The notes under the pieces were generated by a model that made no database searches, was not told the DNA's origin, and was given only the letters and a program-made list of their open reading frames with translations. This document shows, in pieces, positions 6,387 to 30,980 of a DNA stretch of 64,000 bases (the first letter of the stretch is position 1; the number at the start of each line of letters is the position of its first letter). The translations under genes were made by a program, and so were the position numbers. This DNA is from Chloroflexota bacterium (GTDB lineage: Bacteria; Chloroflexota; Dehalococcoidia; Lucifugimonadales; Lucifugimonadaceae). The stretch is from NCBI GenBank assembly GCA_029262735.1, contig JAJCYY010000013.1, positions 4,108 to 68,107 of the forward strand, written 5' to 3'.

Positions 6387-6469
6387 CGGCCAGTTCGCTG
6401 CCCTCCCGCCAGTATGTTGACTATCTTCCACGGCCGCATCTATCATTCCGGCGTTGTCGAATAGACATT

Positions 6470-6650
6470 GCCTCCCGGGTGCCGCCCGCCTCAACAGAAG
6501 GGCGAGCGGTGAAAAGGGAAAGCGGTAAGAATCCGCTGCGGTAGCGCCACTGTGATCGGCGAGTCTGTCTGCACGAGCCACTGCTCCGGCTAACGGGAGC
6601 GGGAAGGCGCAGACAGGCGTTGGAGCCGAGAGCCAGGAGACCTGCCCGAG
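6470..6650 (+). promoter_or_regulatory. Cobalamin (B12) riboswitch aptamer
   Basis: Conserved core read directly: GGTGAAAAGGGAAAGCGGTAAGAATCCGCTGCGG...GCGCCACTGTGA, ...GAGCCACTG...GGGAAGGC, and B12-box AGCCAGGAGACCTGCC at 6631-6646. It sits upstream of a btuCFD-like operon. Confidence 0.85.
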
Positions 6651-6761
6651 AGGCTGAGTGACTGCTTCCCGCCAAGGGGGTGGCTCTCGACTGTGGGTCT
6701 CCGGGACGGTCAGTGGGTTGCACTGGTTAGCCGGTTTTAATACAGATTCACGGCAAGAGAC

Positions 6762-15800: not shown

Positions 15801-16459
15801 CGGCGGCATCCTGAAAGGCAGATCACGCCTTCTGAGAAAGTGGCAAAGTACGCCGGGTCAAGTGCGGGCTGGTTCCGCTCTTCAGGGTCCATGTGAGCGT
15901 GAGTGATCAGCTTGCAGATGTTGCTGTACCCGGTTGCTGTCTCGGCCAGGAGTGTGAGGTGATGGCCGCCGAGACCGCTGCCAGAATCTCCAGAACTCTG
16001 GCTGCTGAGAGTGACCTCAACGCCGATGACGGCCTTTATGCCGATCTCTTTCGCCATCTGCGAGAACTCCATCGCCCCGCAAAGGTTGTCGTGGTCGGTG
16101 ATAGCCAATGCATGAATGCCCAGCTTCTTCGCACGCACCAGCAGGTCCCACGCCTCGGAAGCGCCTTCCTTGAAGGAGTAGTTGGTGTGGCAGTGGAGTT
16201 CCGCGTATGGCGTTTCCGGAGGCTCTGACCGTTCTGGAAAATCTTCGCCCTCAGTATCTGAGTAACGAACAAGGCTTCGGCCGCCGCTTATCCAGCCGTC
16301 GTAGACCTTGTTCTCCCAGTTCGGACGCTTATATTCGTTCCTGTTGTCCTCGATCTTGCGTTTGGCAGGCGACGTCCTGTCTCCGCCGGGAGACCCGTTC
16401 ACATGATTTGCGCGCGGCAGCCCGTGCATCTCCTCCATCAATCCGCCTGCCTGAACCAC
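12899..16459 (-). CDS. dnaE2: Error-prone DNA polymerase III alpha-like subunit
   Basis: 1186 aa. N-terminal PHP domain YAELHCHTNYSFKEGAS. Pol III alpha palm/fingers segments and a C-terminal OB region. Located directly downstream of the imuB-like gene. Confidence 0.9.
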   Translation of the reverse strand: MVQAGGLMEEMHGLPRANHVNGSPGGDRTSPAKRKIEDNRNEYKRPNWENKVYDGWISGGRSLVRYSDTEGEDFPERSEPPETPYAELHCHTNYSFKEGASEAWDLLVRAKKLGIHALAITDHDNLCGAMEFSQMAKEIGIKAVIGVEVTLSSQSSGDSGSGLGGHHLTLLAETATGYSNICKLITHAHMDPEERNQPALDPAYFATFSEGVICLSGCRRGQISELLLLGEQCEAKKVAEQYIQWFGKQSFFLELQQNLVRGDTERNRQLVRLADELGIGTVATNNVHYNSRDRHRLNDALVSIQHNKSLEETHRERRPNDQFHLKSPEEMSYLHREHPEAISNSILIAERCSFDLARDIKKIYKFPDYDAPEGYTPLTWLREICERAATYKYENVDRDTWQRLHERLDREFHLIEKYNLAGFLLQYHDIIKIAHQVQIDLGIVSSDTRIEDHPPGRGRGSSVSLVIGYLIGLSHIDPLQFSLRLDRFLPEDANPEDLPALDIDLDFPREIREELILRVHNRKGPKFAALTGMISTYKVRGAIRDLGKALNLPEEDLGKLIKKMDGHAGIRDIAREMGQLSDYRHRLDAPVWQYLIELSLQLRNFPKYLAQHPGGMVLSAVPLDEVVPMQNSAMEGRYIIQWEKNGSEDAGLVKIDFLALGALSQMVEALQLIRRNRERPVDLSRINFKDMEVYGDIHRADTIGIFQIESAAQMQTVVRLKPKNLEEMAWEVGAVRPGVGVNDGVSMLIRRHLGQEPVVYDHPFEKEALERTLGVPLFQDQLAELAVHVAGMTPLEGDRMRRAFSHRNSIRLVAKWKDDFIQRAVSRGVPQDAAEKIFGKFHGLYQFPEAHAYAFGITAYQMSWLKHHYPLEFFVAIFNNQPMGFYNLETLKEDAKRHAIEVLPPDANLSEEWASIENGVMRMGLRHVHGMTRPNAEVVLATRERFGKFESLADFIRRTGVQQKVLDGMASAGAFDRFGSSSSVAVDQGFESHEKQRQHPTPESANTHDVAQAEDMPDRRALIWEAGLRYRPVNSQHVLPFSEDQNMVPLPDETKWEQMMGEYAAMGVHPESHIMARLRPSLPANVARSDKVQNYEEGSRITVAGLVIRRQRPSGKATFITLEDEFGHNPLVIWPDVYKRVRLNTVSQLLMATGTVSKREGTLNIVVEDIVPIGSETPILQTKDWG

Positions 16460-16797
16460 TCGTCATTGACAAGATCGTGGAACACAGTCAGGCGCTGACT
16501 GCTCTGCAACACAAGGTCGAAGTAGACCCTTTCGATCTCCTGCTCTTCGCCTCGCCACCACTCATCGTTGATCTTCCAGAAATCCTCGATCGAAACCACA
16601 TCCATCCACTGTCCGTCGCTGCGTATCGCCTCCAGCTTCTGGGCGGGACGAAGCTGCCTTCGCTGCCGTCTCCGATGCGGCGCGCCAGTCTGTTTCATGG
16701 CTCCGATCTGCACGCGCTCCGGCATCCCTGTCGGGCCAGTCTCCACCTGCACCGGCTGCGGAGCGTTCAACTGCTGGATTGTGCGAACCGTTGTCAC
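16438..16797 (-). CDS. Hypothetical small Arg/Trp-rich protein between imuB and dnaE2
   Basis: 119-aa ORF on the same strand. It starts 21 nt after the imuB stop and overlaps the annotated dnaE2 start by 22 nt. No motif recognised. Confidence 0.55.
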   Translation of the reverse strand: MTTVRTIQQLNAPQPVQVETGPTGMPERVQIGAMKQTGAPHRRRQRRQLRPAQKLEAIRSDGQWMDVVSIEDFWKINDEWWRGEEQEIERVYFDLVLQSSQRLTVFHDLVNDEWFRQAD

Positions 16798-16817
16798 CAG
16801 GATCTCCTCAATAGCCC

Positions 16818-18080
16818 TTAGTGGCTCAGTTGAACCAGCGCGTGCCGGCGTTCAGGTATGCGAGACCACGGCTCAAGTTCCTTTACCTGGTAGATGGGAG
16901 GCGCCAGCCTTAGCCTGGCCGCCAGCTGCGCAACGGCCTGTTGCAGGTTGTCCTCGCGCTGGACCTCCTTCCACATCGACTCCTGCCGCCACGGTTCTGA
17001 GCTCAGGTCGGCAAGTGTCAATCGGAGGTCTTCGAGGGCTCCCGGAAACTCGACTCCATCGAGCTTTGTCTTGATCCCGAACATGGCATGATTCTTCGCC
17101 CCGACAGGCTCTTTGAACGCTACCTCCATGACCCACGGCGGCTTGCGAAAGACCTGCGCCTGCAGACGTGCCTTGCGGGCGTAACGGCGCGTCATTTGAG
17201 ATTTCGTGAATGCCTTGCCAAGCAAACTTTCGATAGCGGAAACGATGGTCGCAATGCTGACGGTAGGATCGGGAAAGGCCAGGTACTCGGAGACCGATTC
17301 GATCAGTTTACGCGGGACCAGGGGCTGCTCGTCTATGCCGTTCGCAAGCCTCCATATCAGCCGTCCGGCCAGGCCGAACTGTGCCTCTACCGGACCCTGC
17401 CGGAGCTTTGCCAGGTCAGCCAGTGTGCGGAGCCCGAACCTGTAAAGCCTCTCGATGATCTTGAATGGCACAGGCAGAAGCTCTATCGAGAATCCGCCGA
17501 CGAACCGCGCCGGGTCACCTTTCACCATCTGTGCGGTATGCGGGCTGCTCAGAAGAGACGCCAGGTACGCCTGCCATTTGTTCTCACCAATGCCTATGCG
17601 CAGGTCAAAACTACCAGCGGTTTCAGCCAGTAGCCGGATCACTTCACCGGCCGTTCCGTAAAGCCGGTCTAGCCCGCTAAAGTCGATATACGCCACTCCC
17701 GGCCCGGCGTCCTCGACAGCCGGAATGAGCTGCTCGAACTCAATGAGCAGGCTCTCAAATCCAGAGACATAAAGAGGCAGGTCTCCCTGGATCAATAGAG
17801 CATTGCTGTGACGCGACAGGGCGATCCTCAGCGGCATTCCTACTGTCACGTCTGTGATCCCGGCTGAGAAGTCGAGAACGACCGGCTCAGAGAGGCTCAG
17901 GTCTTTGCGAGTGTTTATGCCGTTGCCGAAACTCGTCTGCGGAAGGTCCAGCGCCGAGCACGTCACAAGCACCGGCCGGTCCCCATCAAGAGACGGCTGT
18001 CTGCCAACTTCAACCTGCCAGCAGAAGTTAGGCACACGAACGCATGCCACCTGGCGTTTTTTTTGCTCTGGCCGTTGCAC
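16818..18080 (-). CDS. imuB: ImuB-like Y-family DNA polymerase homologue
   Basis: 420 aa. Y-family style N-terminus (VACVRVPNFCWQVE). Position is upstream of dnaE2 and downstream of an SOS box. Confidence 0.75.
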   Translation of the reverse strand: MQRPEQKKRQVACVRVPNFCWQVEVGRQPSLDGDRPVLVTCSALDLPQTSFGNGINTRKDLSLSEPVVLDFSAGITDVTVGMPLRIALSRHSNALLIQGDLPLYVSGFESLLIEFEQLIPAVEDAGPGVAYIDFSGLDRLYGTAGEVIRLLAETAGSFDLRIGIGENKWQAYLASLLSSPHTAQMVKGDPARFVGGFSIELLPVPFKIIERLYRFGLRTLADLAKLRQGPVEAQFGLAGRLIWRLANGIDEQPLVPRKLIESVSEYLAFPDPTVSIATIVSAIESLLGKAFTKSQMTRRYARKARLQAQVFRKPPWVMEVAFKEPVGAKNHAMFGIKTKLDGVEFPGALEDLRLTLADLSSEPWRQESMWKEVQREDNLQQAVAQLAARLRLAPPIYQVKELEPWSRIPERRHALVQLSH

Positions 18081-18354: not shown

Positions 18355-19368
18355 CTACTCCTGGTGGAGCGTTACCGATCGCATTGGAGGGGCGAACTGA
18401 TGCGGCTCCAGGTGTATGGCCTCTTTCTGATAGACCTGCACTCGATAAGAACCTGTATCTGCGATGAAAAGGTGGCCGTCCGAGTCGATCGCGATCGACC
18501 TTGGTTGGCGAAGGTATCTCTGGGGCTCTAAGACCGCCATGTCACGAATCCGGTTGGGACTGGCATTCGTCATCATGTATTCACGGCCGACCTTCGACAG
18601 AGTAGCCGCGCCCAGGAATTTTTCGACATACCGGGCTTCAGAATTGAACAGTTGGACACGATTGTTGCCCCGGTCACAGACATAGATGTCGCCGTCGGTA
18701 TCGACAGCTACGTCGGTTGGTCGATTGAACTCACCGTCGTCGGCGCCAGAACTCCCAAACTTCATGATGAACTCGCCGTCTCCGGTGAACTTCTGAACGC
18801 GGTCGTTCCTCCAGTCCGCAACGTAGACATCGCCCAGCTCGTCAACCGTGATGCCCCACGGCGAATCGAACTGTCCATCGCCTGTCCCCTTCTCGCCCCA
18901 GCTGAGAATGAACTGGCCATCGCTGGTGAGTTTTTGGACTCGATGATTTTGTGAGTCGACGACATAGATGTTCTCTTCGGAATCGAGCGCAAGCCCGGCC
19001 GGCCGATTGAGCTGGCCGTTGGCGGAACCTTGTTCCCCAAAAGAGCCCAGAAACTCTCCGTCGCTATTGAACGACGAGATTCTGTGAAGCGCTTCGTCCG
19101 AGACGAATAGATTCTCAGTTGAATCAGCGACGATGGAAACCGGCCACTGGAATTTTCCCTCTTCATCACCAAATCCACCGAAGTCGCCGCGGTCCTCATC
19201 ATCAAAGGTGTACTTCCTTACCAGTGCCGTACCCTCCTGGCGGCACAGAATGTACATCCTGCCTTCGGCACCGAGGGCGATGTCCACCGGGAAGTTGGTA
19301 AGACGGCGCATTCCCAGAGTTTTCAGGTACGGGAATCCCGCTCGTAGCAATCCATATGGTCTGGCCAT
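18355..19368 (-). CDS. NHL-repeat beta-propeller protein
   Basis: 337 aa with about six repeats of the pattern G.F..P.G.A.D..G.IYV.D..N.R.Q.F. Confidence 0.8.
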   Translation of the reverse strand: MARPYGLLRAGFPYLKTLGMRRLTNFPVDIALGAEGRMYILCRQEGTALVRKYTFDDEDRGDFGGFGDEEGKFQWPVSIVADSTENLFVSDEALHRISSFNSDGEFLGSFGEQGSANGQLNRPAGLALDSEENIYVVDSQNHRVQKLTSDGQFILSWGEKGTGDGQFDSPWGITVDELGDVYVADWRNDRVQKFTGDGEFIMKFGSSGADDGEFNRPTDVAVDTDGDIYVCDRGNNRVQLFNSEARYVEKFLGAATLSKVGREYMMTNASPNRIRDMAVLEPQRYLRQPRSIAIDSDGHLFIADTGSYRVQVYQKEAIHLEPHQFAPPMRSVTLHQE

Positions 19369-19442
19369 CTAGTCGTCTCCACGAATGACAGATCTGGATT
19401 TTTTTCCAATCGCCATTTACTCGCTAAACTCAGCAACCCGAC

Positions 19443-20612
19443 TCACGCGCCACCGAACGGCTGCAACTGCTCGTACTTGCCATTGACAATATCAACCGAA
19501 TCCACACCCATCCATTGTTCGAGAAGCGTCGCATAGACACCACGGAAATCGATCGTGTGGGCCAGGTCTTCACCGTTGGCGAATGTAGTCGGATCTAGCG
19601 ATGGGTATTCGGCGTAGAGACCGCCTTCGACCTGGTCGCCGATGATGAACGCTCCTCCGCCAGAGCCGTGATCGGTGCCGCTGCCGTTGTCCTGGACCCT
19701 GCGGCCGAACTCGGTGAAAACGTACACGACAACCTCTTCAGAAGCGTTGTGTTCCCGCAGGTCGTCCATGAAGTCTCGCAGCGCGCAACTCAGTTCGTCG
19801 AGCAGTTTTTCGTGAGCAGGCATCTCAACGGCATGATGGTCATAGCCTGCGTGCTGCACATAGAAGATGCGCGTGCCAAGCCCGGCGATATGGGTTCGCG
19901 CTACATCGCGCAAACTCTTCGCAATGGCGTTGTCAGCGTACTCGACGGTTGACTCGTACTTGCCAGCCACGGTCTGAAGCTGACCTATCCCTGCCAGGAC
20001 ATCATCACCGGTTTGCTGCAGGTAGTTCATGGTCGCCCCGCTGCCGATGGCAGGCGTGTAAAAGCGCCGGAATATGTTGAGTTCTTCAGCGCGCTGCTCT
20101 TGAACCTCGACCGACGTCATAAGCCCGTAGCTGTCGAGATCGCCAACTGACGTCACTCTCACTCCCGGCGCAGCCATTGCGCGTGGGAGACCACGCCCGA
20201 AGCTGACTCCGGTCAGGACATTTTTTCCTTCCGGATCCAACTGCTTGATCGCCCGTGCCAGCCAGCCCTCGGTTGAAATCTTCAGCGGCTCTGCCGTGTG
20301 CATGATGTCCATCGCGCGAAAGTGCGATCGATTCGAATCTTCATAACCAATGCCCTGAACTACGGCCACGTCGCCTGTATCGAACATCTCTTTTAGTGGA
20401 CCGGCAGACGGATGGAACCCCAGTTCATCATTGATCGTCAAAACACGGTCTTCGGTGATCCGGACCGTCTTTCGAGAGTCGTAGTAAAGCCCGGACGTGT
20501 ACGGCACCAGCGTGTTCATGAAGTCGTTGCCGCCCGTCAACTGAACGACCACAAGGACCGGGGCTTTGCCCGTCATACCGTTCCCATTGATGTTCATGTG
20601 AGACATCTCCAT
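19443..20612 (-). CDS. DUF1501 domain protein (sulfatase-like fold)
   Basis: 389 aa. VVVQLTGGNDFMNTLVPY near the N-terminus and FGRRVQDNGSGTDHG near the C-terminus. Paired with a DUF1800 gene, as is usual. Confidence 0.75.
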   Translation of the reverse strand: MEMSHMNINGNGMTGKAPVLVVVQLTGGNDFMNTLVPYTSGLYYDSRKTVRITEDRVLTINDELGFHPSAGPLKEMFDTGDVAVVQGIGYEDSNRSHFRAMDIMHTAEPLKISTEGWLARAIKQLDPEGKNVLTGVSFGRGLPRAMAAPGVRVTSVGDLDSYGLMTSVEVQEQRAEELNIFRRFYTPAIGSGATMNYLQQTGDDVLAGIGQLQTVAGKYESTVEYADNAIAKSLRDVARTHIAGLGTRIFYVQHAGYDHHAVEMPAHEKLLDELSCALRDFMDDLREHNASEEVVVYVFTEFGRRVQDNGSGTDHGSGGGAFIIGDQVEGGLYAEYPSLDPTTFANGEDLAHTIDFRGVYATLLEQWMGVDSVDIVNGKYEQLQPFGGA

Positions 20613-20629
20613 TGGTTGAATGGTCAGAG

Positions 20630-22015
20630 CTATGCGAACTGGAACTCTGGCGTTGTGACGATCAGGCGAATCATGCGGACGACCCTTGTCGCATCGTCGT
20701 CACCTTCAGAATCGGTGGCAAAGTTGACGAGCGCTTCGCGGGTTGATTCCTCAACCTCGATGGGTCCCATGACATCGAGCGTGTCCCGCACGAACGACTC
20801 CGGGTTCGAAAGAGAGTTTTGATCGATCAGCCGATTGATGACACGACGAATGCCCGGTGAATCGCCAGTGCCTATCTCACCAACGGCAAAGTTCACACGC
20901 TCGGTGAGGTTGCCGCCGTCAATCCATTCCTTCCCTGTGTGCCATCCCTCGACTGTCGGCGGGTCGAGTAGCTTTTGGCCCATGGCAACAGTGGTCGAAG
21001 AGACGTACTCGGCGAGTCCCGGTTTGTAGTCATCGTACTCACCGACCATCTTCAGTAATCCGACCACCAACTCAATTGGGCTCTTGACCTTTTTGAACCT
21101 TGCCTGTTTGAAAGAGTCAGAGTTGAACATGACCCGCAGCACCGGCGTGATTTCACCGTTTGAATCCAGGAACGCTTTCGCCATTTCGTTGATTAGTTCA
21201 GGATCGAGTGGCGGCAGGTCGTTCCATGTGGGAACCTGGGGTTCGTCGGCCACAAAGAAGTTGTATAGATGGCGGGAGATGAAGCGAGCACACGCGGGTT
21301 GTTTGACGATGATGTCAATGATGTCGCCGCCGTCCAGGTTTCCGGTGTGTCCCAGGAAGGTCTTCTCACCGTTGTCATGGTCTTCTTCGATATAGCGGAA
21401 TTGAGCCGGGTAGTAGCCATGTGGGTACAAAGGCGGAGGCTGGCCGAAGGTCCATCCAGTGAAGGCTCGAGCTGCGTTTTTTATGTCGATCTCGGTGTAG
21501 TTTCCGACGCCGAGCGAGAACAGCTCCAGAAGTTCTCTCCCGTAATTTTCGTTCGGTTCACCGATGTGGTTTTCGTTGTTGTCCAGCCAGAAAATCATGG
21601 CGGGATCGTGGGAGAGATCGAGAAGTATTGTGCGCATATCGGAAAGTCCGTTGCGCCTGAACATCTCGATCTGATTCGAGGACGACAGGATGTGCTCGTT
21701 CTTGACGAGTCCAGTGGCAAATACCTGGTGCCAGAAGAGTGCCATCTTCTCCTGCAACTGGCACCGAGAGTTGATCATCCGGTAAAGCCATATTGCCAGG
21801 TATGCATGCGGTGCCTCGCCGCCCATGTACCGCGTTAATTCATCGTCTGGAACTCCGGCATCAGCGGTGGGATTTAGCAGGAACTCAACAGTGTCTTCGT
21901 AGTCCTGGCCCGATAGCTGATCGATCTGCTCTCGTGCGGCGCCAAATCCTGTACGACGATACAGGTGTGCGAGCAGCGCAGGATCGGTTTTGGCCTCAAC
22001 CGAAGTCGTGCTCAT
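20630..22015 (-). CDS. DUF1800 domain protein
   Basis: 461 aa. LAHLYRRTGFGA start, MALFWHQVFAT and GREL(L)ELFSLG segments characteristic of DUF1800. Confidence 0.7.
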   Translation of the reverse strand: MSTTSVEAKTDPALLAHLYRRTGFGAAREQIDQLSGQDYEDTVEFLLNPTADAGVPDDELTRYMGGEAPHAYLAIWLYRMINSRCQLQEKMALFWHQVFATGLVKNEHILSSSNQIEMFRRNGLSDMRTILLDLSHDPAMIFWLDNNENHIGEPNENYGRELLELFSLGVGNYTEIDIKNAARAFTGWTFGQPPPLYPHGYYPAQFRYIEEDHDNGEKTFLGHTGNLDGGDIIDIIVKQPACARFISRHLYNFFVADEPQVPTWNDLPPLDPELINEMAKAFLDSNGEITPVLRVMFNSDSFKQARFKKVKSPIELVVGLLKMVGEYDDYKPGLAEYVSSTTVAMGQKLLDPPTVEGWHTGKEWIDGGNLTERVNFAVGEIGTGDSPGIRRVINRLIDQNSLSNPESFVRDTLDVMGPIEVEESTREALVNFATDSEGDDDATRVVRMIRLIVTTPEFQFA

Positions 22016-22552: not shown

Positions 22553-24639
22553 TCACCTCAGGATTATTTCGCCAGTGGAATGTACTCGGGCGGCCCGTCG
22601 CCCCGGTGCCAAAACCGAAGGCGGGCCAGACACCACGCTGGTTCCGATCGCAGCTCCTGATCCGATTGACTCTCTATCAGCGTTGGCCTGCTCCAATGAT
22701 CGGCGTCTGACCTTGAACATCATCTCCTCTTCGGAGGCTATAGCCTCCGACTGTCGCAGCGCCTCAATCTTCAGATCGGACTCGTGCATGGCGTCTATCA
22801 GGTCTACAGCTCCCCGAGTGCTTGGCGCGTTCCGAACTGATTCACGCATTGTCTGCTGCAAGCTCTCTTCATCCCTAGCCGCAATTGCAGCCGACTCCCG
22901 CTTCGCACGCGCCTGCGCTTCGGCCTCACGGAGTTCTTGATCGCGCCTCTCTGCCCTGACGATTTCCTGTGCCTGCAGCAAGAACGGCGTCATCCCGTCG
23001 ACATCTTTTGCAAGTGCGATTTCGGATCGACGCTGAGCCTCACTAATAGGCTGCGCATCCAGCGTCTTTAAAATTGTTTCGCCCCTCGCCTGAAAATCCG
23101 CGGTGACAAACTCCGGCGGCCGCAGCTCAGATGGCAGCAGTTCGAACGATCGCCGCATTTCTGCTTCGATCGCGCTCGCACCGGCCTCGCGCTTGGCCTG
23201 GTCCGGGTCGACCACCGGAATTCCGAGATTCCGCAGGAAATCTCTTGCCCCTTCTTCAATGGCCTCAAATGCCCGGCGATGCCGCTCCTTTTCCTTGACC
23301 TGCGCTTCGGCTTCAAGTAAATCAGTGAACTCCTCAACCGCGTCCCGCCGCTCGCTTCTCCGCGCCGCGAAATCCGCACGCGCCAACTGAACCCTTAGAG
23401 ATCGATTGAACTCTTCCAGGCCGGTCAATCCGAAACCTCCCGGGCTGCCGATGGGACTGATACCACGCTGGCGGAACTGATCTCGGAGAAACAGATTGTC
23501 CTGCTCTGCAGGTGACAGATTCTCAAGCCCGGGATTGTTCATTGCGAACTCGGCGCGGGCCTCAGCCTCTTCCTGTGTAAGTGGACCTGCTTCGTCAAAA
23601 CCCAGGAACGTGGGAATATCGGGCATTGGCCCGATGAGTTCAACAGCCTTTTGCAGCAGCGGATCATCCAGGTCTTCTGCTCCTCCATTTATCAGCTCGT
23701 TGAGCCTTTCCGGATCACTGAGAAGCGCCGTCTCCCCTATACCGGCGAGGAGGCTGATTAAGTCTTCGCGGTTCCCCTGCAGAGCCATGTCCACCGCGAG
23801 GGGATTCAGTAAGGTCTGTGAGATTCCTCGTGTTGTAGCATCGTCGAAGATCTTGCCACCAAGAAGACCAGCGAGAGCCTCGACCAGTATCTGGGCTTCA
23901 GGTGATGCGCCCTGCTCGTCCGCTATACCACTGGCCGTACCCGCAACAATCTCTTGCGTTATCGTCCGGCTCAGACTGTCACTCCCGAACAACCGCTGTA
24001 TCGCCTTGCCACCGGGAATTCGGCTAGTAAATTTGAGTCCGAGAAGGAACGCGGGACCGCGACCCAGCGTAGGAACGCCGAGTGGAGAGGCTATGCTCTG
24101 CACCGCGTCCACAAATTCCCCTGTAGGCCCAGGCAAGCTGTCTAGCTGGTCCCGGGTGAAGCCGATGAACGGTGTCGAGAGATTTTCGAGGATGCCACCA
24201 CCGGTGGGATCTGTTTTTAATGGCAGGTCTGGAAAAGTCTGCCTGTCCAGAAAGCGAAAAAAAGCCGGTGCCGTGTTTCTCGTCGTATCTCAGCCAGCGA
24301 CCTTGGATCACCTTCCCTTCTGGGGCCGACGAGCTGCGCCAACCTTCTTTCCAATGCCGCGCTCTGGTTCTGTCTGCGTTCCTCAGAACCAGGAACGCCG
24401 ACGGCAGAATCGAGAATGCCTGCCGAATTACCTCCTAAGCTGTCTATCAAAAAAGCGGCAAGGAGGTCCTTTCGTTTATCGGAAGAGACGGTTTCTACGC
24501 CGCGAAGGCTGAGAAAGAATTCCCCGATAAGCGGGTCTTCAGCCCGCAAAATATCCATGAACTCTACCTCGCCGCCTTCTTCCGGCGGGAAGGCCAACAG
24601 TTTTTCCGCCACCTCGTCAATTCTGTCTCTTGTTACCAT
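22553..24639 (-). pseudogene. Frameshifted coiled-coil protein gene of about 690 codons, function unknown
   Basis: The 140-aa ORF (24217..24639) and the 527-aa ORF (22553..24136) join into one reading frame if the A7 run at 24257-24263 were A8. That gives ...RHRLFFRFLDRQTFPDLPLKTDPTGGGILENL...PGPTGEFVD. The C-terminal half is rich in E/R/A heptad-like sequence. Confidence 0.6.
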
Positions 24640-24741
24640 TTCTCACATCCTGATGGCTGCTGGCGTATTGCCGCTTTTTCCATATCTTTTCAACACATAC
24701 CTACACACTGGCCTACCGAAATCTCTTTCGAGGCTGTTTTA

Positions 24742-25108
24742 ATGAAATCCAGGTGGGAAATCGTTGGTTGGGTTCTGATTGTGATCGCCTTTTTTTGCAA
24801 TTTTGTGGACCCTGAACAGAGGCGGGGCGCCGCCGGGGATAGCCTTTGTTGTAGCCGGAATACTCACCGGGTTTCTGCTGGAAGGGATTGCGAGAGTGTT
24901 TCATCGCACCACGATCTTCCGCGTAGTGTTTCGGTATGAAGATGAAAAAGAGCCTGAAGAAGGTCCATCCAATCCCGGCATCACCCCTGATTCAGAAGAC
25001 CCGCGTAAGCTCATCCGAGGCGGCACCACAACAGGCATAAGAAGCGTCGACTCCCGTCGTGCCGATCTAAACTCCAATGACCCTCGTGACCATATAAACC
25101 GGCACTAG
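24742..25108 (+). pseudogene. Frameshifted paralogue of the small membrane protein at 25299..25688
   Basis: The 24742 ORF (MKSRWEIVGWVLIVIAFF...) and the 24803 ORF (...GIAFVVAGILTGFLLEG...GITPDSEDPRKLIRGGTTTGIRSVDSRRADLNSNDPRDHINRH) together align with the intact copy. The frame changes in the G/C-rich stretch around 24811-24838. Confidence 0.6.
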
Positions 25109-25298
25109 TATCCGAGTCAACGGGCAGCCTCAATTTCCTTCTCATATTCGTTTTCGGCTCCGCCCTCTCTTCATCTGACGTCAGTTCGGACACCAGCCGT
25201 TCTGCGATCTCGCTTTCTTCAACTCGCATATCTCAAATCCTGATCCCTAGTGCGTCGCCGTTTTTGAACTGATTCCGAACACATCTATGTAGACTGGC

Positions 25299-25688
25299 TT
25301 GATGCGACGATCTTCAAAAGCACGTTCAGTCAAAATTCGGTGGGAATTCGTTGGATCCATCCTGTTTTTCGGAACACTCACCGCTATTTGGTGGATCTTT
25401 GTCGACGGCGGAGTGGGGAGGATCATGGCTTTCTATAGCGCCGGATTGGTCACAACGCTACTGCTAGCGGGAGTGCTGTCCAAATTCAGTCACGTCAGAC
25501 TCGTCAGTAAAGTGTTTCCGCTCGATGAGGAAGAGCACCCCGACCCGGACCGTTCTGGCATCACGCCTGATTCAATTGATCCTCGGCAGCATATTCAAGG
25601 CGGAATAGCAACGGGCTTAAGAAGCATCGACTCCCGCCGCGCCGATCCAAACTCCAACGATCCTCGTGACTACATCAATCGGCTCTAA
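25299..25688 (+). CDS. Small two-TM protein with a conserved hydrophilic C-terminal motif
   Basis: 129 aa with two hydrophobic helices. The C-terminus GITPDSIDPRQHIQGGIATGLRSIDSRRADPNSNDPRDYINRL is conserved in the neighbouring paralogue. Confidence 0.55.
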   Translation: MMRRSSKARSVKIRWEFVGSILFFGTLTAIWWIFVDGGVGRIMAFYSAGLVTTLLLAGVLSKFSHVRLVSKVFPLDEEEHPDPDRSGITPDSIDPRQHIQGGIATGLRSIDSRRADPNSNDPRDYINRL

Positions 25689-26156
25689 AATCCAGGGCGC
25701 CGATCACAATTAAGAATCCTTCTCATAATCATTTCCGGCTCCTCTGTTTGTGTCCGTTCAAATGTGACTCCCTTTCGGGATGGCTAACATCGTCGTCTAG
25801 CTCACTCTCACACACACGCCTTTGCCTTTCGACGTTGCAGCCGGATGGGCTCGCCACCGCAAGCTCGTGCGTGGGGATTGTTGGGGCGCCGGATCACTCA
25901 AGACCGCAAACCCTCAAGCCTCTTCAGATTAAAAATACTGGGCATCGGGCACAACAGACATGTCAGGGAGAACAAAGGTGAGTATTGCCGTTGATGGGAG
26001 TCCGCAGGGATCTAACTCCTGGACTCGAAAAAAGTTCACTGGAGACGAGGTCGGGTCTCAAGTAACAGACACGTTCAAGCGTCGTGTCCAACGGTCACTA
26101 GACGCAAGTTTCGGAGCGGCAAATTAAGGTCTCGAAATGATCAACTCGAACGAAAC

Positions 26157-26212
26157 TGGTGGGGAAGGTGGGATTCGAACCCACACGTCTGTTAAGACAC
26201 ATGCTCCTAAGG
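26157..26212 (-). repeat. tRNA-Leu 3' fragment (att remnant)
   Basis: TGGTGGGGAAGGTGGGATTCGAACCCACACGTCTGTTAAGACACATGCTCCTAAGG. This runs from the CCA end to the anticodon loop of tRNA-Leu, with a compensated T-stem variant. Confidence 0.85.
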
Positions 26213-26335
26213 TATTTTCAACTGAGTGCTAGGCGTCCAGAACGACAATCCCAAGCGAAACAGCAATAATTATGTGGCCTAACTTCGGAGCGAAAATCGG
26301 CGGAGAGACAGCGCAGCCTGCTGGTGATACGCCCG

Positions 26336-27361
26336 CTACGCAGAGGCCGCTTGATAGAACTTCTTCGCGGCAAGGAACGCGCCGATGAACCCTTTGTTTC
26401 CTATGCCCCAACTGAAGGCACCTGACGCATCGACGGCGAGCAGTTGATTCGCCATACGCTCCGCCAGTGAATCGTACTCGGCAACAGATGCCCCGACATT
26501 TTCCCGAACCTCTGCTGGTGTCGTCGCGCCGATTTTCGCGGATCGTAGCACCTGGATCGATGCGTGGTTCGCAGCCTCCAGAATGCGATGGGGGAAGTCC
26601 GGGCTGTGTGGTAAAAGCGGGCTGATGGCGACCGAGACGAAGACGCCCTCGTCCTTCAGACGTCGCATGATTCGCAGTCGTCGGTCCGGAGTGATGCCGC
26701 CACGTTCGATCTTCCGTTGTTCAGGCAGAAGATCGGAGCTGATGCTGAAGCTGACACCGACACGCCCCTTCAGTCCTAGTGCAACAAGTCGCTCCAACAC
26801 CTGAGGGTCCTCAACCACTTTTGGTGAACGCGTCTGGCACATCAAGAACACGTTCGACTGGTCGAAGACCTCAAGGTTCTCACGAGTCGTCCGCAACGTT
26901 TCCGGCATTGACAAAAAAGGGTCTGTCTTGGGGCTCATGAACACAGATGCCCCCCCAAGCCCCTTTTTTGGACGTCCTGACGGATCGAGCAGCGCCTTTC
27001 GGAGTCTTGCCGTGATTTCCGGTTTGGGAAGAAGCCAGGATCCCCATTTCCTGAACCAGTAACCGTCTCTTCCACCCGGATAATGCCCTGTCATCAAGTC
27101 CGGCACGTAGCAGAAGCTGCAACTCTTGCCCCAGAGGCAACCAATCCACGGATCGAACGTGTAGATGTTCGCCGGCGCATCGGTCGCCTCGAACTCCGGG
27201 AACGCCCGCTCGCCCGAAAGTTGTCCCCAGAAACCTGACTTCTGGTGGTTGAGCACCACCTTCTGACCCGAAGGCAACAGATCATTTTCTGGGTGCGCCG
27301 GACCGCGGAGAATCGGCTCAAATGAACCGGATAACTGTAAGGGTAACTTGAGTTGCGGCAC
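26336..27361 (-). CDS. Radical-SAM-like enzyme, SplB/COG1533 (DNA repair photolyase)-like, with a Cx5Cx2C triad
   Basis: 341 aa. DPWIGCLWGKSCSFCYVPD (C75, C81, C84). Later strand-like segments VFMSPKTDPF, VGVSFSISS and VSVAISPLLP resemble the COG1533 layout. Confidence 0.5.
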   Translation of the reverse strand: MPQLKLPLQLSGSFEPILRGPAHPENDLLPSGQKVVLNHQKSGFWGQLSGERAFPEFEATDAPANIYTFDPWIGCLWGKSCSFCYVPDLMTGHYPGGRDGYWFRKWGSWLLPKPEITARLRKALLDPSGRPKKGLGGASVFMSPKTDPFLSMPETLRTTRENLEVFDQSNVFLMCQTRSPKVVEDPQVLERLVALGLKGRVGVSFSISSDLLPEQRKIERGGITPDRRLRIMRRLKDEGVFVSVAISPLLPHSPDFPHRILEAANHASIQVLRSAKIGATTPAEVRENVGASVAEYDSLAERMANQLLAVDASGAFSWGIGNKGFIGAFLAAKKFYQAASA

Positions 27362-28117
27362 TTAAGCATCCACACTGTCAGCCGATGATGGCGAGGGAGA
27401 TAACGAATCTCGATCTAGGTAATGCCTGGCAAGCGTCGCAAGAGCGCCGCCCCGGCGAGTCGTGTCGTTCGACCGATGCAAAGCGACATCGAGTGCGAGA
27501 TTCAGCACTCGGTACTCTTCGCTGTGCAGCATAAATCCCATCGAAACCGTTTCGTTCGGAGTTTCTGTCTCTTGTCGAACTTTCTCAGAAGTATCGAAGT
27601 TGGCGATCTCGAGCAGCCTCATGATCTGGCGTTCGCTGTCCGGCAACAGCTCGCAAAGCTCTTCGGTGGAACGCCCATCAAGCAGACCGCAGAGCAGCAC
27701 AGCTCGTCGTTCCGGAATGTCTTTCCCGGAGAGGCGGTTGATTGTAGCCAGGCAAAGCGCCGTTTCCCTATCGTTCAGATTCCAGACAATGCACTGAGCA
27801 GATTCTAGTTGGAGAGCCTGCAGGACCATTAACCGATTTCTTCCATCGATTACTTGGTACTGACCGCGTACTTTAGGGTAGGGACGCACGATGAGTGGTT
27901 CATGGTAACCGGTCAGCTCAATGATCCTCCTCAACTTTGTCAGTCTGTCGGCCGGCATATGATTCGGGCAGCCCACATGAGGAACTAAGCGTTCAAGATT
28001 GATTGAGCGTAGCCTCTCTCTTGAGCATCTTCTCAACCTCCACCAACTTGCCCGATCCCCAACACGCCAATTCTGACTAACGGCTTGCTCAAGAAGCTGG
28101 TACGAGCCTGCTTGCAT
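27362..28117 (-). CDS. ParB/Srx N-terminal-domain protein (ParB-like nuclease/NTPase fold plus HTH-like region)
   Basis: 251 aa. YHEPLIVRPYPKVRGQYQVIDGRNRLMVLQAL matches the ParB N-domain pattern (DG..R). It is followed by ETALCLATINRLSGKDIPERRAVLL. Its stop abuts the radical-SAM start. Confidence 0.6.
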   Translation of the reverse strand: MQAGSYQLLEQAVSQNWRVGDRASWWRLRRCSRERLRSINLERLVPHVGCPNHMPADRLTKLRRIIELTGYHEPLIVRPYPKVRGQYQVIDGRNRLMVLQALQLESAQCIVWNLNDRETALCLATINRLSGKDIPERRAVLLCGLLDGRSTEELCELLPDSERQIMRLLEIANFDTSEKVRQETETPNETVSMGFMLHSEEYRVLNLALDVALHRSNDTTRRGGALATLARHYLDRDSLSPSPSSADSVDA

Positions 28118-29708
28118 TCCTGATATTCAAATCGAGGCTATTCTCTCCGGGTTTCCAGAGCAGATATGCATGGTTGTCCCGAAGCCGGAGTGTTCTTGAA
28201 ACGTCGACTGCCGTGATACCACCGTCGCAGTGTTCAAGAATGTGGGCTTTTAATGTCTGAGGAAACAGGTCGTAGTCTTCGATGAAAAGTAAATCACAGA
28301 CGTCAAGTAACCCGTCCAGGATGCTGGCCCCGTTCGCGGACAACAGGGACTCCTCATTGAATATCCGAGCGGGCGCATAAAAATCGTGCTCACGGCCATC
28401 ATTCGAGTCGCATCCAGTGAGGCGATGCATGCTTCGGTAGAAAGCAGAGAGTGATAGCAGTATGCAAGAACAGCTCGAATCGGCAGCGATTTGGCGGTTT
28501 TGAAATGAAACTGCTCGATCACCGTCACCGAAGCCATAGCAAACTTGACCTAAAAACTTTTCGTTGTGCACGTCAGACTTTTCGAAGGACCTGCGGGCCT
28601 TGGGCTCCATGCACAGATCGGCCCAGGAGAGGCCGGTAATATCGAATTTGCTTAGATTGTTGAGCAGCTTAGAGATGATTCCGATGCGGATACCGTTGGA
28701 AGCTGGCAGCCTGTCGAAAGAATCCAGCCAGCGCCTGTTGTCCTCGGCAAAGAACGTTACGCAGTCAAATTTCTCCTTGATCGATTCGCCGCGAAGGAAT
28801 CGCAGCGGATCCCTCACAACCAGATCCACAGACCAAACACGTACGCGGCAGGAGCCGGATTCAGCAGAGAGTCGAGTCCGGGAGCGTTTGAGCGTCGTGG
28901 AAACCAGGCTCCCGCTACCGGCTCCTATATCCACGATCTCGACGCCTCGATAGGTGTCCTTCTCGGCAGACCACTGTCGTATTACCGGATCAATCACTTT
29001 GTTCACTATGCGCTTGGCTCGCTGCTCAGATCGCGGATCGACACCGCTCGTTGCGAAGTTCGAAAATGCGTCAACTGTCAAGAAACTAGCCGTCCGTGCG
29101 CGATTGGATGCTGCCGGGAAGATCAGCAGCGACAGTTGAGAATTAGGAACCAGCGTTAATTGCCGGTAGTGGTAGAACAGCTCGGCATCTTCGCTGGCAG
29201 CTAGCATGATCAATGGAAGATATCCTGTGCTGTCGGGACTGTTCGGAGCATTCAGCTTTGCCATCAGATAAGCCGGGTTTCTGAGAGTAGTCGTCGCCCC
29301 CGCCTTTCCGTGGCTGTCTGCAGGCGAGGTCAGAATCGCAAAGCACTCGAACGCTAGGACAGTCCTCAATGCAGCTCGGTACTTCATTTCAACGCTCGTC
29401 GACACCACGGCATCCACACTGTTAAGTAATCTGAAGTAGTTGTAGCAGTAGTCAGCTACGTGGGATGAATCGAAGCCACACGCAATATATTCCAGCCAGA
29501 TTCCACGAAGGGACTCCAGACGCTTATCGACTTCATGAATGTGCAAATCCGTCACAGGGGGCCAATACTCTGCCCAGTCGGCCGTATCTATGTGAAATTG
29601 ACCTGATTGATGAACCGTTACGCTCTTGATGAGAGTAGGTTCCTGCAATGCTGATAGAAGTGACCCGCGAAACAAGGATCTTACGGTCTTGTCGGCCATG
29701 CTTGGCAA
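28089..29708 (-). CDS. Large protein with a central class-I SAM-dependent methyltransferase-like domain
   Basis: 539 aa. Motif I VEIVDIGAGSGSL, followed by VRVWSVDLV. The N-terminal roughly 250 aa and C-terminal roughly 150 aa have no motif I recognise. The 3' end overlaps the ParB-like gene by 29 nt. Confidence 0.5.
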   Translation of the reverse strand: MPSMADKTVRSLFRGSLLSALQEPTLIKSVTVHQSGQFHIDTADWAEYWPPVTDLHIHEVDKRLESLRGIWLEYIACGFDSSHVADYCYNYFRLLNSVDAVVSTSVEMKYRAALRTVLAFECFAILTSPADSHGKAGATTTLRNPAYLMAKLNAPNSPDSTGYLPLIMLAASEDAELFYHYRQLTLVPNSQLSLLIFPAASNRARTASFLTVDAFSNFATSGVDPRSEQRAKRIVNKVIDPVIRQWSAEKDTYRGVEIVDIGAGSGSLVSTTLKRSRTRLSAESGSCRVRVWSVDLVVRDPLRFLRGESIKEKFDCVTFFAEDNRRWLDSFDRLPASNGIRIGIISKLLNNLSKFDITGLSWADLCMEPKARRSFEKSDVHNEKFLGQVCYGFGDGDRAVSFQNRQIAADSSCSCILLSLSAFYRSMHRLTGCDSNDGREHDFYAPARIFNEESLLSANGASILDGLLDVCDLLFIEDYDLFPQTLKAHILEHCDGGITAVDVSRTLRLRDNHAYLLWKPGENSLDLNIRNASRLVPAS

Positions 29709-30021
29709 ATGGAACCACCCGAGTGTCCGGTGAAGAAGAGAAATATACGAATCGGGAATCGAGCTCGAGCGCCGGGCTTTTCTTGCCGGTTACGCTCCTC
29801 TCCAACATAGAAACAGGTGACAGCAAGAACAACCGGCATGTCAGGTGAGCTGACTAAACAGCGCCGACAGAGTCTGACGGCAGCGATAAAGAAGATCGCT
29901 CCTAAACAGATGAAAAGAATCGGTGACGAGATCCATTCTCAATCGTCAAACATGCCTATGAAGTGACCAACAAGCGCTAGGCGACAATTTTCAACTCGCC
30001 ACCGAGCCCACTGAACAGCAA

Positions 30022-30075
30022 TGGTGGGGAAGGTGGGATTCGAACCCACACGGATTGCTCCACATGCTCCTAAGG
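30022..30075 (-). repeat. tRNA-Leu 3' fragment (att remnant)
   Basis: TGGTGGGGAAGGTGGGATTCGAACCCACACGGATTGCTCCACATGCTCCTAAGG. The acceptor, T-arm and anticodon arm match tRNA-Leu; the variable arm differs. Confidence 0.85.
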
Positions 30076-30180
30076 GATGAAGAGGTTGTTCACAGACATA
30101 CCACAACGTCCTTCCAAGTGCGCGGCGAATGGCAACAGGTCCACAAACGACCACCTGCGTCCAAGAGTGTCGCTCGTTGC

Positions 30181-30200
30181 TACTGTCAGATTGACTGTCT
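30181..30200 (+). repeat. Bipartite motif copy (degenerate): ACTGTCAG-ATTG-ACTGTCTG
   Basis: 13/16 match to ACTGTCAA-N4-ACTGTCAA. It lies 106 nt inside the distal end of island C. Confidence 0.45.
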
Positions 30201-30671
30201 GGTTTGCATCGAACCGTCCATGGAATCAGCACACGAGGGCCAAACACACGCGTCTTCGGGTTGACCTTGTATCTTCTTCGCTAACGTCGCCTGGATGGTG
30301 GCGTCGATGTGACCTTCTCCCCGAGATTCGCGCCGAATTAGGTGATAATTTTCAGGGAAGATTCTGAACCTAAGAATGGGAGATCATGTCGTGAAGAGAT
30401 CTCAGGTTACAAACGATCAGCCGTTCTTCTGGCGGATGTCCCGTACCGCTCCTGTCAGGATTGCTGTCATGTGGTTGCCGAAAACCATGAACGACAATTG
30501 TTACTCCAGTTGGCCCGGCTTGTGATGGAAGTTTTGGGACCATGAGCAGCGGCCGACGGCACATGCTTACCTGATATGAGGTGGACTTCGCGCTGGTTCC
30601 CTGAAGCAGCGATTTCGAATCCTTGTGTTTTCAGGTAATGAATACTGGGCCATGTATTTTTAGGAAACTCA

Positions 30672-30974: not shown

Positions 30975-30980
30975 TACTCA

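What the first reader, a model, noticed from the sequence alone, without database searches (positions are those of the whole stretch)
27110..27139. Atypical Cx5Cx2C cysteine triad in the radical-SAM-like protein
The presumed cluster-binding segment reads GC(75)LWGKSC(81)SFC(84)Y. This is Cx5Cx2C rather than the canonical CxxxCxxC of most radical SAM enzymes, including SplB-type proteins. Non-canonical spacings are known in a few radical SAM branches (HmdB is one I recall with Cx5Cx2C). The aromatic residue after the third Cys is retained. This may mark a distinct subfamily with different cluster geometry or chemistry.
Basis: partly seen in the sequence, partly recalled or inferred. Interest (0 to 1): 0.5.

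Follow-up and report, generated by a model that had tools for sequence, protein, structure and literature searches.

The report
Radical SAM enzyme with widened cysteine loop
The unusual Cx5Cx2C cysteine spacing is real and is the fixed signature of a small, unnamed branch of DNA-repair-like radical SAM enzymes that travel with a ParB-type DNA-binding partner, and in some relatives the middle cysteine appears to be replaced by selenocysteine.

Summary
The 341-aa ORF at window 26336..27361 (-) carries C75-x5-C81-x2-C84-Y at 27110..27139. The motif is not a lesion: 69 of the 70 family sequences that cover the site read GC[LVI][WFY]GxSCxFCYV. More distant relatives have the canonical CxxxCxxC or other loop lengths (Cx6, Cx7, Cx11).

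HcgA/HmdB and QueE show that a longer first loop still gives an ordinary SAM-cleaving [4Fe-4S] site. "Distinct subfamily" is therefore supported. "Different chemistry" is not.

The context is more interesting than the spacing. The gene is translationally coupled to a ParB_N protein. That partner is adjacent in ten related loci and fused in at least one protein. A family of unannotated methyltransferase-fold proteins often sits in the same operon. In one subclade the C81 codon is an in-frame TGA followed by a SECIS-like hairpin. That would be a candidate selenocysteine ligand in the radical SAM cluster motif.

The parts
27110..27139 (-). Codons for C75-LWGKS-C81-SF-C84, the Cx5Cx2C putative [4Fe-4S]/SAM cluster-binding loop.
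   Evidence: Translation. Conserved in 69 of 70 family sequences. Aligns with the CxxxCxxC of canonical outgroups.
26336..27361 (-). Radical SAM gene, 341 aa, a divergent COG1533/PA0069-like protein.
27362..28117 (-). ParB_N-domain protein of 251 aa as listed; the true start may lie about 35 codons downstream. Its stop codon abuts the GTG start of the radical SAM gene.
   Evidence: Pfam ParB_N scores 26.9 bits against a cut-off of 26.3. Orthologues lie next to the rSAM gene in L002, L003, L027, L028/L029 and L034. Homologues align from residue ~35 onwards.
28089..29708 (-). 539-aa protein of an unannotated family with a Rossmann methyltransferase-like core (VDIGAGSGS motif I). It is the first gene of the operon and overlaps the ParB ORF by 29 nt.
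   Evidence: 32 homologues were found, none with a Pfam domain. D260, G262, G264, G266 and D295 are invariant. Pfam Methyltransf_28 is a weak hit. The AF2 model has pLDDT 80, with weak Foldseek hits to MidA/COG1565, GRAS and histamine methyltransferase. It is co-located with ParB and rSAM in L003, L028, L034, L033, L035 and L036.

Best explanation
The segment is the cluster-binding loop of a genuine radical SAM enzyme. The enzyme belongs to a small, previously unnamed clade of the SPL/COG1533 ("DNA repair photolyase", PA0069-like) branch.

C75, C81 and C84 are inferred to hold the SAM-binding [4Fe-4S] cluster. The two extra residues form a fixed aromatic-Gly turn after the first Cys. They lengthen the C1-C2 loop without changing the chemistry. 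HcgA/HmdB and QueE are the precedents for that.

The enzyme is inferred to work with a ParB-family partner. That partner is encoded immediately upstream and is fused to the enzyme in some relatives. In one lineage, which includes this window, a Rossmann methyltransferase-fold protein is encoded in the same operon.

The most likely role is a DNA-directed radical reaction, either repair or modification. The ParB-type partner would place the enzyme on DNA. The module is carried on a mobile, horizontally moving unit.

What is shown: the motif and its conservation, the fold, the family placement, and the gene linkage and fusion. What is inferred: cluster binding, SAM cleavage, DNA as the substrate, and the roles of the partners.
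For: Motif and conservation.

Discrete clade: in the exhaustive search, 11 representatives reach E<=1e-30, and scores then drop to about 100 bits.

Shared COG1533 core: W106, G107, K113, S143, D147, P148, T177, R178, S179, R228 and P248 are invariant together with the canonical outgroups. The best NCBIfam hits are PA0069, mobile pair B and Rv2578c.

Loop length is free among relatives: 104 Cx3, with others at Cx6, Cx7 and Cx11.

Precedents for normal chemistry with longer loops: PMC10100467, PMC4389238 and PMC9477430.

ParB linkage:
- ParB is adjacent in the window and in L002, L003, L027, L028/L029 and L034.
- A second ParB type (ParB_N plus HTH_ParB) is adjacent in L037, L013, L009 and L007.
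- P0170 is an in-frame ParB-rSAM fusion.
- P0022 shares P0170's pre-rSAM region and is fused to the full rSAM.

The methyltransferase-fold/ParB module also recruits a canonical-motif COG1533 rSAM in L033, L035 and L036. Both loop types therefore serve the same operon slot.

COG1533 genes are LexA-regulated in many phyla (PMC4951493), and SPL acts on DNA.

Mobility:
- IS elements flank L002.
- ParA and TraG are present in L032.
- An integrase fragment and PIN/VapB are present in L036.
- G+C dips at about 24-30.5 kb in the window.
- Only two of 185,579 species genomes carry the family.
Against: There is no biochemical evidence that this protein binds a cluster or cleaves SAM.

The AF2 confidence is lowest in the motif region (pLDDT 68-73 for residues 71-90). 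I could not obtain coordinates to measure Cys-Cys distances.

No COG1533 member other than SPL has a known substrate. DNA as the substrate therefore rests on linkage and analogy.

Several family members lack a ParB neighbour: L001/L004 stand alone, L031 follows a DUF5677 gene, and L032 differs again.

The ParB_N score in the window is only just above Pfam's cut-off.

The methyltransferase-fold assignment rests on motif I and on weak structural hits (TM about 0.2).
Confidence: 0.7

Rival explanations
1. The insertion is a lineage-specific lesion. On this view the protein is a decaying or non-catalytic radical SAM relic that no longer binds the cluster.
For: Scores against all named families are very low. 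Two related loci carry damaged copies: the rSAM is frameshifted in L034, and the methyltransferase-fold gene is interrupted by an IS element in L002.
Against: 69 of 70 sequences at about 50% identity keep all three Cys plus the flanking G, Y and V. Codon differences are biased towards synonymous changes on both sides of the motif. The COG1533 core motifs are intact. The model is a confident barrel.
Confidence: 0.04
2. The longer loop marks a genuinely different cofactor site or chemistry. Examples would be a different cluster type, a different SAM binding mode, or C81-x-x-C84 acting as a thiol/selenol redox pair (UxxC-like) rather than as Fe ligands.
For: In a subclade the C81 codon appears to be TGA/Sec, giving U-x-x-C. 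That is the commonest redox motif of selenoproteins (table in PMC13188914). Some nearby relatives even alter the normally fixed Cx2C to Cx3C (GCGFGKTACGAYCYA). The loop is the least confident part of the model.
Against: The three Cys align column for column with the canonical triad, and the aromatic residue after the third Cys is retained. There is no fourth conserved Cys that could replace C81 as a ligand. The same spacing in HcgA gives a normal [4Fe-4S]/5'-dA enzyme. A canonical-motif paralogue fills the same operon slot.
Confidence: 0.12
3. The enzyme does not act on DNA. ParB adjacency merely reflects carriage next to plasmid partition genes. The real substrate would then be a protein, a small molecule or an RNA, possibly one made or modified by the methyltransferase-fold protein.
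For: The second ParB type (ParB_N plus HTH_ParB) looks like an ordinary partition protein, and L032 carries ParA and TraG. The structural neighbours of the 539-aa protein are protein and small-molecule methyltransferases (MidA, histamine methyltransferase, EgtD), not DNA methyltransferases.
Against: In-frame ParB-rSAM fusions exist. Two unrelated ParB types and two rSAM types keep the pairing in chromosomal islands that have no other partition genes. The stop and start codons abut in the window.
Confidence: 0.2

Closest known systems
Spore photoproduct lyase (SplB/SPL; TIGR04070; PDB 4FHC)
   Different: The TIGR04070 model gives no hit at E<=1. Identity in the structural alignment is 12-13%. 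SPL has CxxxCxxC. SPL has no ParB or methyltransferase-fold partners.
PA0069 / Rv2578c / radical SAM mobile pair protein B (COG1533, MJ0683-like, uncharacterised "DNA repair photolyases")
   Same: These are the best sequence matches. They share the WGxW..K, S..TDP, QTRS, R228 and P248 core. COG1533 genes are SOS-regulated in many phyla. Some are associated with mobile elements.
   Different: Scores are 57, 31 and 40 bits against cut-offs of 360, 430 and 410. Those families have the canonical GCxHxCxYCY. This clade has a 70-residue N-terminal extension and its own C-terminal motif (SWGIGNKGFIGAFLAA).
HcgA (HmdB), FeGP-cofactor biosynthesis radical SAM enzyme
   Same: It has the identical CX5CX2C spacing. 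It is shown to bind a [4Fe-4S] cluster and to produce 5'-deoxyadenosine.
   Different: HcgA is related to HydE, HydG and BioB. The window protein's neighbours are COG1533, SPL and LipA. The shared spacing is therefore convergent, not inherited.
DUF5131 (RadicalSAM.org Megacluster-5-2, CX6CX2C) and QueE (CX14CX2C)
   Same: These are precedents for an expanded C1-C2 loop. DUF5131 sits in the same megacluster as SPL and the MJ0683-like proteins. In QueE the cluster site remains canonical despite the extended loop.
   Different: They have different loop lengths and belong to different families. I made no direct comparison with DUF5131 sequences here.
Known radical SAM selenoproteins (TIGR04167 GxxU family, TrsS NF045646, CUAEP/CCAEP-tail NF040546)
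   Same: They are radical SAM proteins in which Sec replaces Cys in some members.
   Different: None of these models hits the window protein at E<=1. In TIGR04167 and NF040546 the listed Sec motifs (GxxU; CU in a CUAEP/CCAEP tail) are not the cluster triad. No motif is listed for TrsS, and I did not check its Sec position. In the L037-type relatives the TGA sits at the second Cys of the triad.

Membership tests
Radical SAM superfamily (PF04055) | Score at or above Pfam's gathering threshold. | tested here: met
   33.8 bits against a cut-off of 29.5, over residues 74-254.
Radical SAM superfamily (PF04055) | Three-Cys cluster motif at the start of the barrel, canonically CX3CX2C. | tested here: met
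   The motif is present as the variant CX5CX2C. It aligns with the canonical triads of the outgroups, and the aromatic residue after the third Cys is retained. Variant spacings are accepted in the superfamily.
Radical SAM superfamily (PF04055) | Partial (beta/alpha)6 TIM-barrel fold. | tested here: met
Radical SAM superfamily (PF04055) | Binds a [4Fe-4S] cluster and reductively cleaves SAM. | not testable with these tools
   This needs anaerobic reconstitution, UV-vis or EPR, and a 5'-deoxyadenosine assay.
Spore photoproduct lyase (TIGR04070) | Score at or above the NCBIfam cut-off of 400 bits, with the CxxxCxxC motif. | tested here: not met
   The window protein gives no hit at E<=1. The motif is Cx5Cx2C.
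PA0069 family (NF033668) | Score at or above the cut-off of 360 bits. | tested here: not met
   56.9 bits, as a partial match over residues 67-267.
Radical SAM mobile pair protein B (TIGR04470) | Score at or above the cut-off of 410 bits, with an adjacent pair protein A. | tested here: not met
   39.9 bits. The neighbours are ParB_N and a methyltransferase-fold protein, not a second radical SAM protein.
Rv2578c family (NF038135) | Score at or above the cut-off of 430 bits. | tested here: not met
   31 bits.
HcgA/HmdB | CX5CX2C spacing. | tested here: met
   for this protein. for HcgA/HmdB.
HcgA/HmdB | Homology to the HydE/HydG/BioB-like HcgA lineage. | tested here: inconclusive
Bacterial selenoprotein (applies to relatives such as L037, not to the window gene) | An in-frame UGA aligned with Cys in homologues, with the ORF conserved on both sides. 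| tested here: met
   L037 reads GCLWGLS-TGA-QFCYV where L009 has TGC. Codon differences split 13 synonymous to 14 non-synonymous before the TGA, and 70 to 42 after it. Six N-terminal fragments end at ...GCLWG[VL]S, and 13 C-terminal fragments start at V86. TGA is an ordinary stop in six other L037 genes.
Bacterial selenoprotein (applies to relatives such as L037, not to the window gene) | A SECIS hairpin about 11 nt downstream of the UGA, with G and U in the apical loop. | tested here: inconclusive
   An 8+3 bp hairpin starts 11 nt after the UGA, with G23 and U24 in the loop. This is the geometry described for E. coli fdhF. Of 18 loci, only L037 and its nearest Cys relative L009 have it. Against this, the folding z-score is only -1.0, U17 is not bulged, only one TGA-bearing DNA sequence is in hand, and there is no Rfam SECIS match.
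Bacterial selenoprotein (applies to relatives such as L037, not to the window gene) | The host encodes selA, selB, selC and selD. | not testable with these tools
   L037 is an 8-kb metagenomic contig.

The most novel reading that the evidence does not exclude
This clade would be a new two- or three-component system. A ParB-type DNA clamp or DNA-binding protein, adjacent to the enzyme or fused to it, would deliver an SPL-like radical SAM enzyme to DNA. In one subclade the enzyme's SAM-activating [4Fe-4S] cluster would be ligated by selenocysteine (Cx5Ux2C). That would be the first natural radical SAM enzyme with Sec in the cluster triad. It would also be a previously unlisted selenoprotein family.
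Probability: 0.35. Interest if true: 0.85.

Novelty: new variant of a known kind. Interest (0 to 1): 0.55.

Why it matters
The spacing on its own adds one more entry to the known list of non-canonical radical SAM motifs.

The family behind it is a well-delimited, completely unannotated branch of the large COG1533 "DNA repair photolyase" group. No member of that group other than SPL has a known substrate.

The fixed pairing with ParB-family proteins, including fusion, gives a concrete and testable hypothesis for what such enzymes act on: DNA, reached through a ParB partner.

If the TGA-containing relatives are confirmed, the Cys and Sec forms would be a natural matched pair. They could be used to ask how a selenolate ligand tunes the radical SAM cluster. 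So far that question has been approached only with artificial substitutions.

Tried and rejected
- A sequence search of the PDB with the family profile found nothing relevant. The only hit was an OmpA porin at E 0.89.
- PADLOC gave no defence-system assignment for the rSAM or the 539-aa protein. The ParB gave only a weak match to ParB-fused type II methyltransferases.
- The viral contig scan found only distant canonical relatives. A plasmid tblastn found only distant relatives at 29-34% identity. The family is therefore not evidently phage- or plasmid-borne in curated collections.
- Literature searches for a radical SAM + ParB-like + DNA modification system returned nothing. The closest paper, a reappraisal of Dnd systems, does not describe this module.
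- An Rfam search of the L037 TGA region found no SECIS family.
- The promoter and terminator scan of 25600-31000 found no more than chance would give.
- The 99-aa ORF after the rSAM gene in L028 and the 136-aa gene of the L033-type operons have no counterpart in the window.
- A short-query search for more N-terminal, Sec-truncated fragments returned only two proteins, because of the word index.
- I could not obtain model coordinates, so Cys-Cys distances were not measured.
- I considered HcgA homology as the explanation for the spacing and rejected it. The protein's neighbours are COG1533-type proteins, SPL and LipA.

Full report
**1. The observation**

The minus-strand ORF 26336..27361 (GTG start, 341 aa) reads ...IYTFDPWIGC75LWGKSC81SFC84Y85VPDL.... 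Codons C75 to C84 occupy 27139..27110, exactly the coordinates given. Three of the protein's four cysteines lie in this segment. The Pfam Radical_SAM match (33.8 bits against a cut-off of 29.5) starts at residue 74, at profile position 6, which is where the cluster motif belongs.

**2. Is the spacing a lesion or a signature?**

A search of 5.8 billion proteins returned 95 close relatives at about 50% identity, plus four distant ones.
- 69 of the 70 family sequences that cover the site have GC[LVI][WFY]GxSCxFCYV.
- The exception is P0038, a single-member cluster, which has one extra residue (Cx5Cx3C).
- The distant outgroups P0096, P0098 and P0099 have the canonical GCQxxCxYCY. P0097 has Cx11Cx2C.
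- In a joint alignment C75, C81, C84 and Y85 are invariant. So is the COG1533 core: W106, G107, K113, S143, D147, P148, T177, R178, S179, R228 and P248.

An exhaustive HMM search of 1.84 billion representatives shows that the clade is discrete. Eleven representatives reach E<=1e-30, most of them fragments. Scores then fall to about 100 bits for the broad COG1533 population, with 2,020 hits at E<=1e-3.

I tabulated the motif in the 146 newly listed representatives (P0132-P0277):
- 104 are canonical.
- The two family members among them (P0132 and P0133) are Cx5Cx2C.
- A related set reads GCAFGRGGCPFCYVR, with Cx6, Cx7 or Cx11.
- About eight read GCGFGKTACGAYCYA, which is Cx6Cx3C.

Loop length after the first Cys is therefore evolutionarily labile in this corner of the superfamily, but it is fixed at five within this clade.

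**3. Fold and family**

AlphaFold2 on the family alignment gives pLDDT 85 and pTM 0.85. The motif loop is the least confident part of the core, at 68-73.
- Foldseek against the PDB finds LipA, spore photoproduct lyase and Elp3.
- A sequence search of the PDB finds nothing.
- NCBIfam's best hits are PA0069 (57 bits, cut-off 360), mobile pair protein B (40, cut-off 410) and Rv2578c (31, cut-off 430). The SPL model gives no hit.

The protein is therefore a radical SAM enzyme of the COG1533 ("DNA repair photolyase") neighbourhood. It is not a member of any named family. Its nearest non-family relatives are equally unnamed.

**4. Does the spacing imply new chemistry?**

The literature held here says no.
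- HcgA/HmdB has CX5CX2C, binds a [4Fe-4S] cluster and makes 5'-deoxyadenosine (PMC10100467; PMC4389238).
- QueE (CX14CX2C) has a canonical cluster site with one extended loop.
- RadicalSAM.org lists CX4 to CX11 variants. These include CX6CX2C in DUF5131, which shares Megacluster 5 with SPL and the MJ0683-like proteins (PMC9477430).

HcgA is HydE/BioB-like. The identical spacing here is therefore convergent.

Within the present data there is a further argument. The same operon type uses a canonical-motif COG1533 enzyme in other genomes (see section 5). That again points to ordinary chemistry.

**5. Context**

The gene is the last of three co-directional, tightly packed genes:
- a 539-aa protein at 28089..29708;
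- a ParB_N protein at 27362..28117, overlapping the previous gene by 29 nt;
- the rSAM gene, whose GTG start abuts the ParB stop codon.

The trio recurs in L003 (a Dehalococcoidia MAG), L028/L029 and L034 (where the rSAM is frameshifted). In L028 the identities are 33%, 37% and 54%. In L002 the first gene is broken by IS elements. In L027 only a stub of it remains.

A second branch of the Cx5 clade has a different ParB type (ParB_N plus HTH_ParB, 277 aa). It lies directly upstream in L037, L013, L009 and L007.

P0170 is an in-frame fusion of a full ParB to the rSAM N-terminus. P0022 carries P0170's pre-rSAM region fused to the full rSAM.

The 539-aa family has 32 members, all annotated as hypothetical with no Pfam domain. 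In L033, L035 and L036 it also occurs in a differently ordered operon: 539-aa protein, then rSAM, then ParB, then a 136-aa protein. There the rSAM is a 316-aa canonical-motif enzyme (SGCAHDCIYCYA) only 22% identical to the window protein.

The 539-aa protein has an invariant methyltransferase motif I (D260, G262, G264, G266) and an invariant D295. Its model (pLDDT 80) gives only weak matches, all to Rossmann methyltransferase folds: MidA/COG1565, GRAS and histamine methyltransferase.

Some family members lack these partners (L001/L004, L031, L032).

The module looks mobile:
- IS elements flank L002.
- ParA and TraG are present in L032.
- An integrase fragment and PIN/VapB are present in L036.
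- G+C in the window is about 0.51-0.53 across roughly 24-30.5 kb, against 0.57-0.59 in the flanks.
- Only two of 185,579 species genomes carry the family.

**6. Mechanism**

This part is inference. SPL is the only characterised enzyme of this branch, and it acts on DNA. COG1533 genes are LexA-regulated across phyla (PMC4951493). The partner here is a ParB-family protein, sometimes fused to the enzyme.

The most economical reading is a DNA-directed radical SAM reaction, either repair or modification, with ParB supplying DNA targeting. The methyltransferase-fold protein would be an accessory subunit of unknown role. Nothing here identifies the substrate.

**7. An unexpected relative: TGA at the second Cys**

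Thirteen homologue clusters (P0069-P0081), 66-89% identical to one another, all begin at V86. Six N-terminal fragments (P0162, P0163, P0167, P0170, P0283, P0284) all end at ...GCLWG[VL]S.

I could fetch the DNA for one of these, L037. It reads GGG TGT CTG TGG GGG CTG AGT TGA CAG TTC TGC TAT GTG. That is an in-frame TGA exactly at the C81 position, and the reading frame is otherwise intact.
- Its closest Cys homologue, L009, has TGC at that codon.
- Codon differences between the two split 13 synonymous to 14 non-synonymous before the TGA, and 70 to 42 after it. Both halves are therefore under purifying selection.
- TGA is an ordinary stop in six other L037 genes, including the ParB gene, whose length matches its homologues.

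Downstream of the TGA, an 8-bp upper stem starts 11 nt after the UGA, extended by 3 more pairs. G23 and U24 lie in the apical loop. This is the geometry described for the E. coli fdhF SECIS (PMC8659212). Among the 17 related loci plus the window, only L037 and L009 have this hairpin.

Several caveats apply:
- Only one TGA-bearing DNA sequence is in hand.
- The folding z-score is unremarkable (-1.0).
- U17 is paired rather than bulged.
- No Rfam SECIS model matches.
- The host's Sec machinery cannot be checked.

A 2026 review lists three radical SAM selenoproteins: TIGR04167 (GxxU), TrsS and, by way of the Haft preprint, the CUAEP-tail family. None of their NCBIfam models hits this protein. To my knowledge, which is not a tested result, Sec within the radical SAM cluster triad has not been described.

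This does not change what the window gene is, because it has Cys at that position. It does mark C81 as a functionally critical residue, and it makes the family more interesting than its spacing alone.

**8. Verdict**

The window feature is a new variant of a known kind. It is an unnamed COG1533-type radical SAM clade with a fixed Cx5Cx2C loop, operonically tied to ParB and to a methyltransferase-fold protein.

Interest is moderate for the spacing alone. The ParB fusion evidence and the candidate Sec-for-Cys substitution in the cluster motif raise it.

Noticed in passing
L037:4583-4585 (TGA) and L037:4593-4619 (hairpin); proteins P0069-P0081, P0162, P0163, P0167, P0170, P0283, P0284: In one subclade of the family the codon for the second motif Cys (C81) is an in-frame TGA. 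A SECIS-like hairpin follows it, starting 11 nt downstream, with G23 and U24 in the loop. Gene callers split these genes into an N-terminal fragment ending ...GCLWG[VL]S and a C-terminal fragment starting at V86. This is a candidate Cx5Ux2C selenoprotein.
   Followed up: partly
P0170 (386 aa) and P0022 (541 aa): P0170 is an in-frame fusion of a ParB-family protein (ParB_N, followed by a Cys-rich CCNRVLKL segment) to the N-terminus of the Cx5 radical SAM enzyme. P0022 carries the same pre-rSAM region fused to the full rSAM. This is Rosetta-stone evidence that the two act together.
   Followed up: partly
L033:4930-8506, L035:5001-8595, L036:5001-8602: This is a second operon architecture: 539-aa methyltransferase-fold protein, then a 316-aa canonical-motif (CxxxCxxC) COG1533 rSAM, then ParB_N, then a conserved 136-aa protein with no Pfam or NCBIfam match. 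It occurs in Chloroflexi/Dehalococcoidales MAGs, next to smpB or to an integrase fragment and PIN/VapB.
   Followed up: partly
P0145, P0151, P0168, P0176, P0224, P0228, P0270 (relatives): Some COG1533 relatives read GC[GA]FGxxxCGxYCYA, which is Cx6Cx3C. Even the normally fixed Cx2C spacing is altered in these proteins. P0038, inside the family, has Cx5Cx3C.
   Followed up: no
window 24803..25108 (+) and 25299..25688 (+): Two tandem paralogous small ORFs of 101 and 129 aa are 49% identical (E 5e-31). Each has a hydrophobic N-terminal part. They share the C-terminal motif GITPDSxDPRxxIxGGxxTGxRSxDSRRADxNSNDPRDxINR. Neither has a Pfam match. They converge on the rSAM operon.
   Followed up: partly
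window ~24000..30500: G+C dips to about 0.51-0.53, against 0.57-0.59 in the flanks. The dip spans the small paralogous ORFs and the three-gene operon, which is consistent with a horizontally acquired island.
   Followed up: no
window 12899..18080 (-): A DnaE2-like polymerase gene (PHP, DNA_pol3_alpha, finger, HHH_6 and OB domains; 1186 aa) lies next to an IMS (ImuB/Y-family-like) gene. Together they look like an SOS mutagenesis cassette. They sit about 9 kb from the rSAM operon. COG1533 genes are co-regulated with imuA-imuB-dnaE2 by LexA in other phyla (PMC4951493).
   Followed up: no
window 6460..6663 (+): Cobalamin riboswitch (Rfam RF00174, 110 bits).
   Followed up: no
window 18355..22015 (-) and L002:15207-17038: DUF1800, DUF1501 and NHL-repeat genes flank the island. 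This gene set is typical of Planctomycetota (from memory). L002 has similar neighbours.
   Followed up: no
L034:6497-7452 and L002:4388-6865: Two related loci carry damaged copies of the module. In L034 the rSAM is split into 170-aa and 134-aa pieces by a frameshift or an assembly error. In L002 the methyltransferase-fold gene is interrupted by DDE transposases.
   Followed up: no
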